Below, in pieces: positions 3,783 to 18,269 of a DNA stretch of 64,000 bases. The DNA lies in assembly GCF_016432865.1 (NCBI RefSeq), contig NC_067400.1:632834001-632898000 (forward strand), read 5' to 3'. The DNA is from Antechinus flavipes. Its lineage: Eukaryota. The position numbers and the translations under genes were made by a program. Positions within the stretch are counted from its first letter, which is position 1, and every line of letters begins with the position of its first letter. The notes under the pieces were generated by a model. That model was not told where the DNA came from. It did not search any database and saw only the letters and a program-made list of their open reading frames with translations.

Positions 3783-6700
3783 ATGGTCTCCCGGCTGGCG
3801 GTTCTGCTCCTTCTAGGTGAGGCCAGGGAGCCCCGTGGAGGCCATCCTTTCCTGCCCCTATGGCTTCCCCGTCTTGGGCAGCCGGGGAATGGGTGACAGG
3901 CCGCCTTGTCCCCGCCGCCGGGACCTGTCCCGGGCACGGCCACCTCAGCCTTCTCCACTCAGCACCCCTGGCCCCACTCCGGCAGGGCCCCCAAACCCAA
4001 CCCCAAACCGGAGCTCCGAGCTCTCCTTCCTCCTCGGTCACCCCATGCTCCCCCGTCCCTGCAGCTTCGCCCAGGACGCTGTCCACACCTCCGGCGGGCT
4101 CCCCGCAGCTCGGCCTCTGACCTTCCTCCTTCCCGGGTCTCCCTCCTCCCCTGGGAACTTCTTCCCCTTTGGGGGCTTCCCAGGCCGCCTCCCTCCTGCT
4201 CTGCCCAGATCCCTCCCCAGGCTGGACACCTTTGGGGCGATCTGACCCCGGCACTGATCTCCCTAATTCGCTCTGGCTCAGGGCCCACCTTCTAGGAACT
4301 TTGTCACCTGTAAAACGGGAAGATAATAGTCCCCGAAATGGTCACAAGGAAGAACTTCCCAAGCCCACCTAGTGCTTCCCCTCTTCCTGCCCTATCTTTT
4401 CATTTAAACTCCCAGTGACTCTATTCTATCCCATTCCCCCAGGGCTTTGGCTGGACCCACACACGGAGGGGGAGGCAGCCGTATGTGAGTGAGTTCTTGA
4501 GATCCTGAACCACAAACGCAAGGGGAGCCAAGGGGACTGGCGGGGCCCAGGGGGACAGAGGGACAGTGGGGACCCAGGGGGACAGAGGGACTGCGGAGGC
4601 CCAGGGGGACAGAGGGACAGCGAGGACTGAGGGGGGCAGAGAGACAGAGGGACTGCAGAAGCCCAGGGGGACAGAGGGACAGTGGGGACCCAGGGGGACA
4701 GAGGGACAGTGGGGACCCAGGGGGACAGAGGGACTGTGGAGGCCCAGGGGGACAGAGGGACAGCGAGGACTGAGGGGGGCAGAGAGACAGAGGGACTGCA
4801 GAGGCCCAGGGGGACAGAGGGACAGTGAGGACCCAGGGGGACAGAGGGACTGTGGGGACCCAGGGGGACAGAGGGACTGTGGAGACCCAGGGGGACAGAG
4901 GGACAGCGGGACTGTAGAGGCTCAGGGAGACAGAGGGATGGGGGGACCTGAAGGACACAGAGGGCCTGGAGGGCCGAGGGAGGTGGAAGAACACAGAAGT
5001 GGGGCAGAGGGACTGAGGCACAAGGGGAGGGGCCCAGGTGGGGCTAAGAGGCCTCCTCCAGGCCCTGAAATGGGCTGGAGGAGGGCCACATTGCTGCCCC
5101 GACCAAGAGCTTGGAGATGCCTTTGGCCGAGCAGAACCTGCAGCGCTCGGTCCTTCTGTCCAGCCACCCTTTGACCCCAGACCTCCCCTCCCTCCGTATT
5201 TCCCCAGACACGGCTGCCCGGGCCCTTGCTCCAAGCAGCCTGCAACTCAAACTCCCTCAGCTCCAGGTCACCAGGTAGCTCGGTGGAGAGAGACGAGGGC
5301 CCGGAGACAGGGGGATCTGAACTCAAATTCCACCTCAGACATTTAACTAAGTGTAGGGCCCTGAGCGACTCGCCACCGTCTGCTCAGCTTCCCGGACTGC
5401 AAACCGGGGCCAACGATGGCGTCTGGCCTCCAAGGTAGTCGTGAGGATCAAGAGATGATTTTTGGGAAACAGATGTTCCTTTTCTTTCCTTCCTGCCCAG
5501 TCTGGGCGTTCCGGGGTCTAGGTTCCCCCATCCCCCCAGCTCTATATCGAAAGGTTCCACAGGCTCTCGCATTGTCTCGATTCGACACGGTTTCAGGTTC
5601 CTGCTCGGACCCGGCACGGCACCTGGCATCCAGTCCCAATAATTATAACTAACATCAGATGGCACCTACTCCGGTCCGGGCACTAAGTGCTAAACACTTA
5701 ACAAATAGCATCTCATTTGATTCCCATAACAACCTCGAGAGCTAAGTGCTGTTACTATCCCCGTTTCAACGGCCGAGGAAGCTGAGGCGGGCAGGGGCAG
5801 ACTCTTAATCAATTCTCTGGGAAATCTTACAGATATAGACACAACTCCTAAGATCTGGATAAAGCCTGAATCCGCATCCACGCCCTGGGCCAACGTATCC
5901 CTTCAGTGCCTGTCGATTAATATTCTGGGAAGTACGTTCGAGCTGTTGAAGGATGGGAAACGCTTCGCTTCGCTTCCTATCCTTCATCCCATTGTCACGT
6001 TCCCACTGGGGCCAGTGACAGCGGACAACAAGGGCACTTACCAGTGCCACATCCAAAAGAAAAAAAGCTGGAGTTTAACGAGTGCCCCGGTGGAGGTGAC
6101 GGGGACAGGTGAGCGGGGACAGGGCTCGGGCTTCGGAAAACTAGTTCTAGACCCTGGAGCCAGAGGCAGGGGGACCACTAACCGCAGGCTGCCTCCCACC
6201 ATCCCTTGCCCGTCCCCAATCTCTTTTTCTCTTCCTGCTTCTTTCTCTCTCCATGTGTCTGCGTCTCTCCTGCCTGTTTCTCTGTCTCTCCCTCCTCTTG
6301 CTTTCTCTCTTGTCTGTCTGCCTCCATGTCTTTCTGTCTCTCTGCGTCCTTCTCTCTGCCTCCCTGCCTCTTTCTGTCTCTATATCTCTGTCTCTGTCCC
6401 TCCTGTCTCTCTTCCTGCCCTCTTGATTTTTTTTCTGCAGGAAAGCTGCATGATGGGAAGGAAAGGAGTCCAAAAATGGGAGTGCAGAGCTCTGGGTTCT
6501 GGTTCTGGCTCTGTCCCAAACGCTGTATGTCCCTGTGAAAGTCCCTTTCCCTTTTTGTGCCTCGGTTTACCCAAGTGTAAAGTAAGGAGCCAGGAGGCAG
6601 TCAGATGTAGTCACTGTGTCAGTTGGTTTGGTTCGCTTGCTTTCCTAAAAGGAAGCGTGCGGAAGGAGCGGATAGTGCAGTGTGATTTCCCACGTAAAAG

Positions 6701-9700
6701 GAGCGTGGGTAACAAATCCCCCAATAGTGACCCCAGCTCGCAGCCCATTGGCAGAGATCTCTCTGGACGGATGTAGACAGTCACAGGTGGCCACCCGATT
6801 TCTTCTCCCCTCCCCCCCCACAATACAAAGAAGGAGTAAGGGGCGGAGGGAGCGACCTCCATGAAGCTTCCCGCCTTCCAGCTCTTCCTCAGGCTCCTTC
6901 CCCCTTCAGTTTCCTCATCTGCTGCTCCAAGGTTGTGAGCACAGACATTGTAGGTTCTCAGATATTCTGGCGTTCTGTGATCCTAACAGAGCCCCTCCCA
7001 GCACCCTCCGTCAGGACTGAGCCCGGACCTTGGATCCTCCACGGCGTGGACACTCAACTGCACTGCCAGGGGCCACTGCTGGACATGACCTTTGACTTGT
7101 ACCAAGAAGGAGAGCAGAAGCCTGTGGCCAGCTCCCTCCCCCCGGAATCAGAAGCCACCTTTCTCATTAAGAGCCCCGGAAACTACACCTGCCGCTACCG
7201 AGCACCCACAGCGGCACCCACGGCGGGCTCAGCGCCCAGTCAGACCGTCCACTTTGTGGTGCCAGGTAAGGGGGGAGCGAGGCAGCGGGGCTCGGGGCCG
7301 GAGGGGGGACGCACGCTCGTGGCAGGGAGACGCGGTTCCAAGCACGGAGCTCCCAAAGGCCTGGGAGGAGCTGAGGCAGGGACTTACAGGGAGCCCCAGG
7401 AGGAGACGCTGAGTGACCAGAGGGAGCAAGGCTAGCGGATACCTGGGGGGCTCCCTCGGAGCTTCAAATCCCCTGAGACTCCCGGCTCATCTTCACAGGC
7501 ACGTCTCCCTCCCGGCCTGACCCTGGCTACCCACACGTCCGATCCGCCAGACTTTGCTCAGACTCCCCCTCCCGCGGCTTTTGGCCCGTGTGGGCCACTC
7601 TGCCCCCCTCGATTTCGTAGACCCGGGGTTTCTGCTCCCCTCTCCTCCCTCCACAAGGGCACCTTGGGGTCTCCTCATGCAGCCCCCAGAGGCCCCGAGG
7701 TGGATGCCCGGTGGGGGGGGGCTGAGGCTGGCATGGACGGCATCTCCTGTCTGATTTCCCATCCAGATTCCTTGCCAAAACCTTCTTTCCAAATTCGGGA
7801 GGATGATCTGATCTTCAGGCCCGGAGCATCCGTGACCTTCCGGTGCCGGGGAAAGTTCCCGGGGCTGGCCTTCGAGCTGTACAAGGACGGGAAGGAGGTC
7901 TTTGTGTCCCACTTGTCTTCAACGGACCCTCTGCATATCGACTTCCACCTGGAGGACCTGAAACCCGGGGCCGGGGGCAAATACTACTGCCGCTACCGCT
8001 TCAGAGACGGGCCGTCCATCTGGTCGGAAGACAGCTCCTCCGTGGAGCTCATCCTGACCACAGGTGAGGGGGCCGGGGAAGGGCCCCGGGGGAGCCGGCA
8101 TCTGGGCCCTCACTTCCCGACCACTCCGTACTGATTAAGCACCTACCGCGTGCCAGGCACCGTGCTGAGCACTGGGGAAACAGAGGGAACAGACCCCTCT
8201 GCTCTAAAGGGAGAGCAACAAATAGTCGAGTAGACTGGGCCCAGTCGGGGAAGGGGCCTGCCCAGGCTCACACAGATGTCAGCCGGGGAGCCATACCCAG
8301 GGACGGCGCAGCAAACCCAGAGCCCCGGGTTCAAGACTCAGCAGAGAGCTGCTCTCACCTCTGCCGACCCGCAGTCCCTCTTTCTGAACCTCGCGCCCTC
8401 CCAGCATTCCCCGTCGTGCCCTCCCAGCATTCCGCCTGGGGGCATTGCCTGCCCCAGCCCCTGGCCCCCGCCTCAGCGATCCTCTGCCCGGAAGGGTCTG
8501 GGTGGGTCACTGTGTGGGAAGGAGGCCCCCGAAGTCTCGCTGCCCCCACGATGCGCTTAGGAACGGGACCTCGGGAGGGTGGGTGGGCTTCTCCTCGCCC
8601 TCAGCTCCCTTGCGGCTTCCGGGACAGGCCAGCGGCAGGAAGGCAGGTACCGTGGACAGCTCTGCGGAGAACTCCCCTCCCCCCTCCCCTTCTCTCTCCG
8701 CTCCCCCTCCGTGCTGTCTGCCTGGAGGGGCCGCGGGTTCAGGCCACTACCATATGTGGGGGGGGAGGGGGCGAGAGGGGGACGCTGCAGGCTCACCGGG
8801 CACAGATCTGTCCTCCCTTTCTCAGCCAAGTCCTGGAAAATGCTGCCCAGGCTCGCGGCCTCCCTCCCCTCCTCTCTCGCTCCCCCTGCCCTGGGGGATG
8901 GGCTACCTCGGGTCACTCCGCCCCCCTCTGCAAAGCCAGGCGCTCGCTTCTCCACTTCTCTGCGGTCTTGGACCCTGCCCACCACCCTCTGGGTGGAGGT
9001 CTCCTCTCCGGGCTGCTCCCGATTCTCAAACAGATGGACACACAGAGAGATAAAGAGACAGAGACAGACAGACAGAGATAAAGAGAATAAAGAGACTCAG
9101 AGACAGACAGAGATAGAAAGAAACAGATGGACACAGAGATACAGATAAGCAGACACATAGAGATAAAGAGACACAGAGACAGAGATAGAAAGATAGAAAT
9201 AGATGGACACAGAGATACAGATAAGCAGACACATAGACAGAGATAAAGAGACACAGAGACAGACAGAGATAGAAAGAAATAGATGGACACAGAGATACAG
9301 ATAAGCAGACACATAGAGATAAAGAGACACAGAGACAGAGATAGAAAGATAGAAATAGATGGACACAGAGATATAGATAAGCAGACACATAGACAGAGAT
9401 AAAGAGACACAGAGACAGACAGAGATAGAAAGAAACAGATGGACACAGAGATACAGATAAGCAGACACATAGAGATAAAGAGACACAGAGACAGAGATAA
9501 AGAGACACAGAGACAGACAGAGATAGAAAGAAACAGATGGACACAGAGATACAGATAAGCAGACACATAGAGATAAAGAGACACAGAGACAGAGATAGAA
9601 AGATAGAAATAGATGGACACAGAGATATAGATAAGCAGACACATAGACAGAGATAAAGAGACACAGAGACAGACAGAGATAGAAAGAAACAGATGGACAC

Positions 9701-12132
9701 AGAGATACAGATAAGCAGACACATAGAGATAAAGAGACACAGAGACAGAGATAAAGAGACACAGAGACAGACAGAGATAGGCAGATAGAAACAGATGGAC
9801 ACGGACAGAGATATAGATAAGCAGATACATAGATGGACACACAGATATAGAGACAGACAGCTAGAGATAGGCAGATAGAAACAGACGGACACAGACAGAG
9901 ATACAGATAAGCAGACACATAGATAGGCAGACAGATGGATGTATAGACAGACATGTAGACAGGCAGACAGACATATAAAGTTAGATACAGATACAGACAG
10001 ATAGAGGCAGATAGATGGATAGATGGATATGGATGGATAGACTGACAGTAAGACAGGCAGGTGGTAGACAGATAGACACAGACAGATAGAAACAGATGGT
10101 ATTGATGGACAGACAGACAGATTATGACAATCAGCCTGGGTCTCCCCTCGGAGCTTGTCATGCATCACCCCTATGCTCCCTCTTGCAAGCTTTCCCAGTT
10201 GTGCCAAAGGCCCTACCATCCTTCCAGGCTCCCAGGTTTTCTGGCTTCATCTCCCTCTCTCCTCACATCCTCAGTTTGTTGCCCCATCTTGCCACTCTTG
10301 CCTTCCCAGCAGCTCTCTCCCTCCTGCCCCCTTCTCTCCCGGACTCCCCTGTGGCCCGGATCGTTGCCCCCGCCGCCCGGCCGCTGTCCCAGCCTCCGGT
10401 CTCTCCCTGCTCCAGGCCGTCCCCCCCCTTGCAGCACTTTCCTGAGGTGCAGGTCAGACATGCGAGTCGCTGTTCAACCCTGGGATTGCTATGGTCTAAT
10501 GAGATGAAATTCGCTCTAATTAACCCCCAGAGCCCTCTCTCCTCCTGGTAAGGCCCTTCACAGAGGGTCCCCAGCTGCTCCCTGCCGTCCAGTCCGAGGG
10601 ACCCCTTTGTCCCTCGCTGAAAGCTCCCCCCACTCCCGGTGGCTTTGCCTTCCTCGACTTCCTAACTGCTGCGTCCGTTTTCCACGCGCGTCTCCTCCCG
10701 GGAAAGGAAGATCCCGGGAAGCAGGAGCGCTTTCATTCCCTGCCTGGCCGTAGTAGGCAGACAGTAGGTGCTCAGTAAATCCTTGCTGGTGGTTGATGGG
10801 GTTAGAATCCGCTAAAAACTGCGGAGCGGGTATGATAATGGCAGCTCCCATTTACTTTGCGAATCGCTCGGCATGTTCTCTCTTCCTTCCCAAAGCCCTT
10901 CGGGAAACAGCCGAGTCTGTAAGTGACTTGGCTAAGGGCACGCGGCTACTTTGTTCCAGGAAGCGTTCCCGCCGGGTCCCAAGTCAGTGCTCTGTCCGCG
11001 ACTTCATGCTGCCCCCTCCTTCAGAGGGACCGGGCATCCCTGGGCCTCTGCCCCCTCATTCATCAAAGGGGACGATGAAGGAGAAGCAGAGGCCCCCGTC
11101 GGCCCCAGGGCAGGCTTGGGCCCCACCCCCAGCTCTGCTGCGTTTTCCAGGGGTCCCCCGGCCTCGGCTTCCCGGCGTTTTGCCGCTCTGTGAGACGGTC
11201 CTGAGTTCATTATCGGAACGGCCTTTCCCGACCTCAGAGTTTTATGTTCTAGGCTCCCTTCCAACTCTATGATTTTCTGTTACAGCTCCCCCCCCCCCCT
11301 CCCCCGACTGCACGTTCTGCGTGCTAGGGCCCTGCTCCCCACCCCACCCCCGGCTCTGGCTTTGCCCCTCCCCCGCTCCTGCAGCTAACACCGGTGGCCT
11401 TTTCTGTGTCTAGAAACCCTGCCCAAGCCGACCCTGTGGGTCCAGCCCCCGGACGCCGTGATCGCTCCCGGGACCAACGTGACCCTGCGGTGCCTGGGGG
11501 CCCGGCCCAACGCCAGGTTCGCCTTGCTGAGGCAGCACAGCAGCCGGCCCCTGCAGGTCCTGAGCGTCCCCGGCCCGGAGGCTGACTTTGTCCTCCGCGA
11601 GGTCTGGGACTTTCACTCGGGCAATTACAGCTGCCTCTACTTCGAGACCGCCGCCCCCTTCGCCGGGGCCCCAACGAGCGACTACGTGGAGCTCGTAGTG
11701 GATGGTGAGGGGGAGGGCCCACGTTTGCCAGGGCGTGGGGGGAGGGACGATATCTGAAGAAGCCAATGGGTGAGGAGGGGCGGGGTCCCTACGGCCACGT
11801 GGGCCGATGGAGTCTGGGTTCGAGGCGGGACGGGAAAGCCACCTTAAAGCTCGTCTCCCAGGAAAGGCCCTTAAGGACGCCAGCCCATTCCCCTGGGGAG
11901 GTCCCGGAGCAGGAGCCTGCGTGGGCCAGAGCTGGGGAAAGCCTCCTCCCCCTGCACTTCATCTCACGGCGGCCTGGTCTCGCCGGCGGGCTCCCCCGGC
12001 ACCGGGCCTCCCAGAGCCTCAGCTTGGGCCTCCTGGAGCCTCAGTTTCCTCCTCCGTGAAAGGGGGGTCACACATGCTGCGGCTTTAGGCTTGCTTGCTT
12101 TTTTTTTTTTTTTTTTTTTAGAAATATCCTAG
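3783..12132 (+). CDS. Secreted Ig-superfamily glycoprotein, alpha-1B-glycoprotein / DM43-DM64 (venom-inhibitor) family, four Ig domains, 408 aa
   Basis: Spliced exons 3783-3816, 4443-4484, 5833-6108, 6990-7265, 7767-8063, 11414-11704, 12122-12132, all GT-AG and all junctions phase 1, total 1227 nt. Split signal peptide MVSRLAVLLLL-GLWLDPHTEG. D1 YIDTTPKIWIKPESASTPWANVSLQC...GPVTADNKGTYQC...SAPVEVTG; D2 EPLPAPSVRTEPGPWILHGVDTQLHCQG...FDLYQEGEQ...GNYTCRYRAP; D3 ...GGKYYCRYRFRDGPSIWSEDS; D4 ETLPKPTL...GNYSCLYFETAAPFAG. These match my recollection of opossum DM43/DM64 domains motif for motif. AATAAA at 12279-12284. Orthology to A1BG versus a paralogue cannot be settled from this window, so no symbol is given. 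Confidence 0.88.
4545..4940 (+). repeat. About 27-bp minisatellite (CCCAGGGGGACAGAGGGACTGTGGGGA-type) in A1BG-like intron 2
   Basis: Unit starts at 4546, 4573, 4600 and onward; imperfect copies. Confidence 0.9.
5272..5490 (+). mobile_element. MIR-family SINE relic
   Basis: tRNA-derived head remnant, CTGAACTCAAATTCCACCTCAGACATTTAACTA and GTGAGGATCAAGAGATGA, a form typical of marsupial MIR-like SINEs. Confidence 0.55.
5655..5810 (-). mobile_element. MIR-family SINE relic
   Basis: ATCTCATTTGATTCCCATAACAACC...GAGGAAGCTGAGGC, the reverse of the MIR core. Confidence 0.55.
9020..10110 (+). repeat. Purine-rich compound tandem repeat (GACACAGAGATAGATAAGCA-type) in the A1BG-like D3-D4 intron
   Basis: Higher-order repeats of AGAT/AGAC motifs; produces spurious S/L/C-rich minus-strand ORFs. 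Confidence 0.9.
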
Positions 12133-12444
12133 GAAAAACTAGAACCTCGGGAACGAGTGAATTATCGTGGCTGGAAGCCGAGATCCCCAGAACGCAGGAC
12201 GGAGCCCGAGCCCCACAGCTCCTCAAGAACAATGACAAACACAAGAGCTTTTCCCCGGCCTATTAATCAGCCTCGGAAAATAAAAGTGATTTGCTCTTTC
12301 TAGGCAGAGGTGCTGAATTTTGGGGGGTGGGAGTAGACCCCGAGGGATGGAGCCTAGTCCCCTGGGAGGAACTGAAATCAGCAGCCATAGGCAGGGCCAC
12401 CTCCGGGTCAGCAGGGACAGCGCACAACATGCTCTCCAGCCAAG

Positions 12445-13229: not shown

Positions 13230-13620
13230 TCGAGCTGCCCGACTCCAGGCCCCGCGCGGGGAGGATGGCGGAGGGACACGTCAAAAGGAAAAATCTATCC
13301 TGGGTGCGAGTGCCGACGAAGGCCCGCCCCTGCGCTGTCACTCATCACCCGGGATCACGCCTCGTACGGCCAATCAGGCCCCTCCCTTAATCTTTTTCTG
13401 CGCAGGCGCATATCATGGGAGCCACCGTGGGCTAACAAACTCTGCGGCGAGGCCCGAGAAGCCCCTCCCCACCCCCTACAAAAGAGCCATCGCGCGCGTG
13501 CGCGCAGGCCGCGCGCTCGTTTCCTAGGGAGCCCACGTGGCCGCGCGCTTCCGCAGCCTGGGCTAGGACCCTGGAGCTGCAGGGCCACTTGAGGGAAGCC
13601 CAGGCAGAACGGCCACGCGC
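13230..13620. promoter_or_regulatory. Orphan CpG-island promoter between the 3' ends of the A1BG-like gene and ACP4
   Basis: CCAAT 13370-13374, NRF1-type TGCGCAGGCGCA 13399-13410, E-box CACGTG 13534-13539, many CGCG runs. Confidence 0.6.
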
Positions 13621-14138: not shown

Positions 14139-17889
<3,751 letters not shown>

Positions 17890-18269
17890 GGCCGCCCTTC
17901 TTGGCACCTGAGCACACGGATGGGAATGAGCCGCTCGCCCGCTCCGGCTCCCTCCCACCGCCTGCTGCCCGCCCCACCCAGTCATTACCTCCCCAGCGCC
18001 CCAACCCCTAATCATTGCCCACAGGCTCAAGTCCGGGCGGCTCCCGGAGGCAGGAGGCCGCCCCCAGACTGTCTCTGCAGCCGGCGAGAAACCCGACAGA
18101 CCGACGGACGGACGGATGGACACGCCGGGGGCTGGGCGCAGAGCCGCAGGCAAACATACACACGGACAGATGGACAGGGGCAGGCAGAAAGACACTGATG
18201 GATCTGGAAGGAGAGAAAAACGGATGCAGGGGCACATGGACGGGGACAGATCATCTGCTAACATCCAGA

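What the first reader, a model, noticed from the sequence alone, without database searches (positions are those of the whole stretch)
3783..12132. Four-Ig-domain secreted member of the A1BG / DM43 / DM64 toxin-inhibitor family
Seen: a clean spliced ORF of 408 aa with signal peptide, four phase-1 Ig exons, four N-glycosylation sequons and no transmembrane segment. Known: A1BG and opossum DM64 (myotoxin/PLA2 inhibitor) have five Ig domains, DM43 (snake venom metalloproteinase inhibitor) has three, and human A1BG binds CRISP3. D1-D4 here track the DM64 domains as I recall them, but no fifth-domain exon is present before the polyA signal. Inference: a four-domain architecture intermediate between DM43 and DM64, possibly with its own ligand (venom metalloproteinase, PLA2, CRISP or endogenous ADAM/MMP). 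D1 looks the most diverged domain.
Basis: partly seen in the sequence, partly recalled or inferred. Interest (0 to 1): 0.7.

Follow-up and report, generated by a model that had tools for sequence, protein, structure and literature searches.

The report
Dasyurid A1BG lost its fifth domain
This is a carnivorous marsupial's only copy of the blood protein A1BG, kin of the opossum antivenom proteins; like the dunnart and Tasmanian devil versions it lacks the fifth Ig domain, and it likely binds the animal's own CRISP proteins rather than snake toxins.

Summary
The gene is real as described: seven exons, 408 aa, four phase-1 Ig exons, four sequons, no transmembrane segment. Spliced contigs from two RNA-like runs support it, including D4 joined to the short terminal exon. 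It is the single-copy marsupial A1BG/DM64 orthologue of a dasyurid. Its domains are D1-D4; no D5 exon or relic was found nearby or in the genome. The form is not unique: NCBI models for dunnart and devil are also 408 aa with four domains, while 9 of 10 non-dasyurid marsupial species seen have five. So D5 was lost in the dasyurid ancestor; this is a truncation of the five-domain form, not an intermediate between DM43 and DM64. Opossum oprin is also reported with four domains. The dasyurid branch evolved faster (65:24 changes against possum; one control gene 18:32), and both devil models point to a D4 frameshift. Likely job: plasma decoy binding CRISP proteins through D3, which is untested. D5 carries half of DM64's cross-links to its toxin, so DM64-like activity is doubtful. 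Modest interest.

The parts
3783..3816 (+). Exon 1 coding part: start codon and hydrophobic signal-peptide core
4443..4484 (+). Exon 2 (42 nt), end of signal peptide
   Evidence: the X7 loose end before D1 matches its 3' end at 29 of 30 letters
5833..6108 (+). Ig domain D1 exon (N46 sequon)
   Evidence: GT..AG joint to D2 in X7; only match in the genome, 38 candidates scored
6990..7265 (+). Ig domain D2 exon (N182 sequon)
   Evidence: joints in X7
7767..8063 (+). Ig domain D3 exon; counterpart of the human A1BG Ig3 that binds CRISP2; keeps the A1BG-type SST.P segment
   Evidence: spliced to D4 in X7; Ig3-CRISP2 binding from PMC11599453
8594..8646 (+). Minor cryptic exon end (donor at 8647) spliced to D4 in one run; its 5' end is unknown
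   Evidence: X6 contig of 373 nt; one contig in 1 of 2 RNA-like runs
11414..11704 (+). Ig domain D4 exon (N330 and N379 sequons), last Ig exon
   Evidence: covered without other letters by X6 and X7 contigs
11705..12121 (+). 417-nt last intron, where D5 lies in other marsupials; no D5 relic; ends in a poly-T tract and AG
   Evidence: frameshift-tolerant D5 profile best 25.7 against shuffle mean 23.8, max 32.1
12122..12132 (+). Terminal coding mini-exon giving EIS and stop
   Evidence: junction contigs in X6 and X7; dunnart ends EIS, devil EKS
12279..12284 (+). AATAAA, candidate polyadenylation signal; contigs continue past it

Best explanation
This is the single-copy dasyurid orthologue of A1BG/DM64, lacking the fifth Ig exon so that D4 splices straight to the terminal mini-exon; it is predicted to be a secreted plasma glycoprotein that likely works as a non-enzymatic decoy, binding the animal's own CRISP proteins mainly through D3. 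Shown: gene structure, splicing of D1-D4, orthology, domain identity, absence of D5, sharing with dunnart and devil, a faster-evolving dasyurid branch. Inferred: one deletion in the dasyurid ancestor; secretion into plasma; CRISP binding, carried over from human A1BG; tolerance of D5 loss because Ig3 alone is enough for CRISP binding; weak DM64-type myotoxin binding because D5 is gone.
For: Tree of D1-D3: window groups with devil and dunnart (100), inside the marsupial clade (100), which is sister to eutherian A1BG (95). Each of D1-D4 falls in its own mammal-wide clade (support 90-99); window D4 is 62-64% identical to possum and bilby D4 and 37-38% to their D5. Single copy: D1 finds only itself; the next D4 matches are at most 47% identical and about 8-11 Mb away among LRC-like exons. 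Possum D5 finds at most 46% identity, best E 1.6e-8, all 142 candidates scored, against 60-70% for D1-D4. Five-Ig models in 9 of 10 non-dasyurid marsupial species seen, none in 3 of 3 dasyurids. Human Ig3 alone binds CRISP2 at 13.8 nM and blocks its sterol binding; Ig4 does not bind (PMC11599453 passages). [quoted passage not shown] The D3 segment SST.P is kept from platypus to the window and changed in DM43b. The genome has 4 CRISP-domain matches, 3 with open frames. The koala orthologue is abundant in plasma and milk (PMC13511061; PMC5054531). The AlphaFold model of the dunnart protein, a stand-in 80-88% identical per domain, folds with mean pLDDT 86.9.
Against: I found no binding data for any Australian marsupial orthologue in the papers searched. 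Window D3 is only 26-33% identical to eutherian Ig3, and the SST.P segment is not shown to be the CRISP contact. Docking in PMC11599453 ranks Ig5 as a lesser CRISP contact, so its loss may matter. The dasyurid branch is about twice as long as diprotodont branches, which fits a changed ligand or relaxed constraint better than a kept role. The devil gene appears frameshifted in D4, and PMC5054531 did not find the gene in devil or wallaby transcriptomes. The tissue of runs X6 and X7 is not on record, and they come from one study.
Confidence: 0.55

Rival explanations
1. Relaxed constraint: the gene is becoming dispensable in dasyurids. D5 loss, the long branch and the devil frameshift are steps of decay, and no particular ligand is maintained.
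For: Devil models from two assemblies: one is 408 aa but flagged LOW QUALITY, the other runs off frame in D4 and stops at 347 aa. The +1 frame of the window's D4 gives nearly the same tail, with a stop 174 nt before the last junction, which would invite nonsense-mediated decay. Acceleration is spread over all four domains. All 5 coding differences tabulated in X4 and X7 change the residue.
Against: Frame, all 8 Cys, splice sites and four sequon positions are intact in window and dunnart. The gene is transcribed and spliced. No dN/dS could be computed. The devil lesion lies at a G run and could be a recurring sequencing error.
Confidence: 0.22
2. Venom or prey-toxin inhibitor adapted in carnivorous marsupials. 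Shortening and fast change retuned it, as in DM43 or oprin, to bind toxin metalloproteinases or phospholipases.
For: Didelphis relatives DM43, DM64 and oprin do this (PMC5037476; PMC8830425); oprin is reported with four of five domains. The dasyurid branch is accelerated while one control CRISP gene is not (65:24 and 55:25 against 18:32 and 24:22).
Against: No duplication as in Didelphis. D3 is 62% identical to DM64 but 46% to DM43b and lacks the DM43b-type change. D5, which carries 9 of 18 DM64-myotoxin cross-links, is absent. A search for dasyurid, snake venom and resistance gave 2 papers, neither on this subject by its listing. The 'DM43-like' database name is automatic.
Confidence: 0.17
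3. Artefact: a D5 exon exists but is missing from the assembly or lies elsewhere, and the four-domain form is a minor isoform.
For: The D4-terminal junction contigs fall just under the tool's bridging rule, and the loose-end and piece tables were cut (11 and 30 rows not shown). Koala has four-Ig splice isoforms of a five-Ig gene.
Against: No N in the region. Contigs of X5 and X1 lie along the last intron without a large insertion up to the masked repeat. An intact-looking ACP4-like gene closes the interval about 2 kb downstream. Dunnart and devil models from separate assemblies end the same way.
Confidence: 0.02

Closest known systems
Dunnart XP_074163989.1 and devil XP_031819958.1 / KAM9039431.1 ('venom metalloproteinase inhibitor DM43-like')
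   Same: Direct orthologues: 408 aa, D1-D4, terminal EIS or EKS, 77-88% identity per domain
   Different: The devil models indicate a D4 frameshift; the window frame is intact
DM64 (Didelphis, Q8MIS3) and five-Ig orthologues of possum, glider, tammar, koala, bilby, Dromiciops, Gracilinanus, Monodelphis
   Same: Same D1-D4 in the same order, 48-72% identity per domain
   Different: They keep D5, which in DM64 is the main myotoxin contact
DM43/DM43b and oprin (opossum metalloproteinase inhibitors)
   Same: C-terminally shorter family members; oprin reported with four of five Ig domains (second-hand)
   Different: DM43b has three domains, is sister to DM64 within Didelphis and has a remodelled D3. 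The oprin sequence was not retrieved; I recall it being a partial cDNA, so its domain set is untested here
Eutherian A1BG
   Same: Orthologous soluble LRC group-B protein (PMC6557307); same domain order
   Different: Five domains; 26-51% identity per domain; CRISP binding shown there, not here

Membership tests
A1BG/DM43/DM64 family | Tandem LRC-type Ig domains, one per phase-1 exon, with paired Cys | tested here: met
   best PDB sequence match OSCAR, E 4e-22; best fold matches PirB and LILRs
A1BG/DM43/DM64 family | Secreted: signal peptide, no TM segment, N-glycan sites | tested here: met
   hydropathy and sequons, alignment to the DM64 precursor; no signal-peptide predictor run
A1BG/DM43/DM64 family | Groups with DM64, DM43 and A1BG rather than other LRC proteins | tested here: met
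Canonical A1BG / DM64 | Five Ig domains | tested here: not met
   D5 absent
Canonical A1BG | Binds CRISP2/CRISP3 | not testable with these tools
DM43-type SVMP inhibitor (strict sense) | Three Ig domains and descent from the Didelphis duplicate | tested here: not met
   Four domains; outside the DM43b+DM64 clade; D3 46% to DM43b
DM43-type SVMP inhibitor (strict sense) | 1:1 inhibition of venom metalloproteinases | not testable with these tools
   Bench assay needed
DM64-type myotoxin inhibitor | D5, D3 and D1 contacts with Lys49-PLA2 | tested here: not met
   D5 missing; role of D5 from PMC8830425 passages; activity itself untested

The most novel reading that the evidence does not exclude
Loss of D5 plus roughly doubled protein change on the dasyurid stem marks an independent retuning of A1BG in Australia's carnivorous marsupials towards toxins of their prey or predators. 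It would parallel the DM43/oprin truncations in American opossums, with C-terminal shortening recurring in Didelphis, dasyurids, devil and perhaps wombat.
Probability: 0.17. Interest if true: 0.65.

Novelty: new variant of a known kind. Interest (0 to 1): 0.3.

Why it matters
The ligand and purpose of A1BG outside humans and opossums are open questions. Dasyurids offer a natural D5 deletion, and the devil possibly a D4 truncation or null. Comparing these with five-domain koala or possum protein would show which domains the ancestral role needs, and whether the 'DM43-like' label means anything in Australian marsupials. The architecture itself already sits in public gene models, so the gain is a comparative observation, not a new kind of protein.

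Tried and rejected
D5 relic: profile HMM, tblastn and a frameshift-tolerant alignment found none after D4. A weak match at 8439-8528 in the D3-D4 intron (39.8 against a maximum of 35.9 in 20 shuffles; best tblastn E 0.078) is in the wrong place and Pro/Gly-rich, so I took it as chance. Open AG..GT phase-1 candidates between 11705 and 14100: 19, of which 7 have spaced Cys, all at 13.2-13.5 kb and none Ig-like by eye. Paralogues: none. Rfam over the window: 0 matches. The dasyurid CRISP that could be fetched whole lacks the conserved CAP histidines (motif recalled, requirement), and the nearest canonical hit was a broken rodent model. A YccV-like Pfam hit at 54.3 kb lies in a tandem repeat and was rejected. 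Runs X1-X3 held small shares; X1, when laid, looked like DNA of a related animal and was not used as expression evidence. Contig depths (1414 spliced against 18 unspliced in X7; 24 against 6 in X6) are indicative only. The regex Ig count overcounts and was not used. Literature searches that found no account of a dasyurid four-domain form: 0 papers; 0; 15 of 374 listed; none of the 15 holds the A1BG term; PMC12866920 has 0 hits for the terms. Subscription journals and supplements were not seen. The earlier-findings index gave nothing.

Full report
Observation. Seven coding exons (3783-3816, 4443-4484, 5833-6108, 6990-7265, 7767-8063, 11414-11704, 12122-12132) join through GT-AG, phase-1 introns into 408 codons and a stop. 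The protein has two Cys per Ig exon, sequons at N46, N182, N330 and N379, and no 19-residue window above 1.26 hydropathy. All four domain exons hit Pfam Ig families. The best solved relatives are OSCAR by sequence and PirB and LILRs by fold (on the dunnart model, mean pLDDT 86.9). The region has no N.

Transcript evidence. Seven runs were listed and five were laid. X6 and X7 have no library type on record, but their contigs join exons at GT..AG, so I treat them as RNA. They belong to one study, which may be the assembly's source. One X7 contig joins exon 2, D1, D2, D3 and D4. In both runs a contig goes from 11704 to 12130 with eight letters between, the length of 12122-12129, which lies in a masked repeat. 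These contigs have 29-30 letters on the short side, under the tool's 31-letter rule, and the tables were cut, so a rare other isoform is not excluded. Unspliced contigs are also present, at lower depth. Contigs extend beyond the AATAAA at 12279.

What it is. The nearest proteins are dunnart (408 aa, ending EIS) and devil (347 aa; and 408 aa ending EKS, flagged LOW QUALITY). Possum, glider, tammar, koala, bilby, Dromiciops, Gracilinanus, Monodelphis and Didelphis DM64 have five Ig domains. The wombat models have three, on a 781-kb scaffold. That is 9 of 10 non-dasyurid marsupial species with five domains, and 0 of 3 dasyurids (one search listed 120 of 202 hits and scored only 7984 candidates). 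A tree of D1-D3 places the window with devil and dunnart (100), within marsupials (100), sister to eutherian A1BG (95), with DM43b and DM64 as Didelphis sisters (100) (24 sequences chosen by me, D4 and D5 left out). A domain tree of 65 domains gives five mammal-wide clades at 90-99 support and assigns the window's domains to D1-D4. A CRISP exon of the genome matches the named Antechinus protein over 42 of 42 residues, so the animal is a dasyurid, likely an antechinus.

D5 is gone. Possum D5 searched against the genome finds the window's own D3 (33%) and LRC-like exons (at most 46%), with all 142 candidates scored. Orthologous D1-D4 are 60-70% identical to possum. No relic scores above shuffles after D4. 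An ACP4-like gene on the other strand ends near 14.1 kb. Beyond it lie a nuclear receptor, a family-B polymerase, an Ets factor and a myosin-binding-protein-C-like gene; I recall this order as NR1H2-POLD1-SPIB-MYBPC2 on human 19q13.33. The gene is single-copy. The simplest history is one exon deletion in the dasyurid ancestor (inference). The terminal exon read in another frame gives N-I-L, close to the K-I-L tail of possum, tammar and koala. It may be the ancestral last exon shifted by one base; this rests on protein tails only.

Rate. Lineage-unique changes over D1-D4, with Monodelphis as outgroup, are 65:24 (devil:possum), 58:28 (window:possum) and 56:23 (dunnart:possum), and 55:25, 47:28 and 50:28 against Dromiciops. 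One control, a CRISP paralogue, gives 18:32 and 24:22. With Gracilinanus as outgroup, window against tammar (54:36, p 0.07) and bilby (47:29, p 0.05) are borderline. The dasyurid stem is 0.25, 0.27, 0.40 and 0.41 for D1-D4, so D1 is not the outlier. One control gene cannot separate selection from a lineage rate effect.

How it likely works. Family members are non-catalytic stoichiometric binders (DM43 1:1 with its metalloproteinase; PMC5037476 passages). Human A1BG Ig3 alone binds CRISP2 at 13.8 nM, Mg-dependently, and blocks its sterol binding; Ig1 binds more weakly and Ig4 not at all (PMC11599453 passages and Discussion). Human CRISP3 pulls down human and bovine A1BG (PMC3936225 passages). 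The window keeps D1 and D3, and D3 keeps a segment (SST.P) shared from platypus to bats but changed in DM43b. The genome has three open CRISP-domain exons among four matches. I therefore commit to a plasma CRISP decoy for which D5 is dispensable, at about 0.55. DM64-like myotoxin inhibition is less likely, since half of 18 DM64-toxin cross-links involve D5 (PMC8830425 passages). Decay is the main rival: the devil tail matches the +1 frame of D4, with a stop 174 nt before the last junction, and PMC5054531 (passages and section 10) found the gene only in koala among the marsupial transcriptomes it searched.

Against what is known. Marsupial A1BG-like genes and their kinship with DM43 and DM64 are published (PMC5054531; PMC6557307 abstract and passages, where only two devil exons were found). 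The koala protein is abundant in plasma (PMC13511061 passages). Oprin is said to hold four of five domains (the 1992 paper was not read). The searches listed under Tried and rejected found no account of a dasyurid-wide D5 loss; subscription journals and supplements were not seen.

Verdict. A real, expressed, correctly read gene. It is a family member and a lineage-specific structural variant already present in public gene models. The D5 loss, the long branch and the apparent devil frameshift make a small, testable comparative story. Interest 0.3.

Noticed in passing
P0003 / P0121 (devil), matching window 11490-11530: Devil orthologue appears frameshifted early in D4 in models from two assemblies (347-aa model; 408-aa LOW QUALITY model). 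It would give three Ig domains plus a stub, or a decayed transcript.
   Followed up: partly
P0124-P0126, P0013 (wombat): All four wombat models stop after D3. This is either a further independent truncation or an assembly gap.
   Followed up: no
window 5998, 6060, 6065, 6066, 7143 and one letter in exon 2: Runs X4 and X7 differ from the window at five coding sites, all changing the residue (T81M, K102E, K103N, S104G, P169R). The X7 loose end shows a sixth (G21A; my reading). Three restore the dunnart residue and lie in A or G runs, so they are alleles or assembly errors.
   Followed up: partly
window 8594-8646: Cryptic exon end spliced to D4 in run X6; low-depth contigs also cover about 8356-8578 in X6 and X7.
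   Followed up: partly
window 9086: AATAAA inside the D3-D4 intron at the start of a 1-kb purine-rich repeat; it could allow a three-domain transcript, but no evidence for one was seen.
   Followed up: no
window 14140-17890, minus strand: Intact-looking ACP4-like histidine acid phosphatase with an RHGxRxP motif, convergent with the A1BG-like gene.
   Followed up: partly
window 22000-60000, plus strand: Nuclear receptor, DNA polymerase B, Ets and myosin-binding-protein-C-like exons in the order recalled for NR1H2, POLD1, SPIB, MYBPC2. No aspartic-protease (NAPSA-like) hit among the ORFs scanned upstream of the receptor.
   Followed up: partly
L016 (G000:C4:214266685-214266807) and P0127-P0130, P0158: A marsupial CRISP paralogue conserved from Monodelphis to dasyurids lacks the conserved CAP histidines seen in turtle and primate CRISPs; a fourth CRISP match in the cluster has stops (L018).
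   Followed up: no
window 13380-13520: CpG-rich stretch with CCAAT and GC-palindrome motifs between the two convergent 3' ends, promoter-like; no gene assigned and no Rfam match.
   Followed up: no
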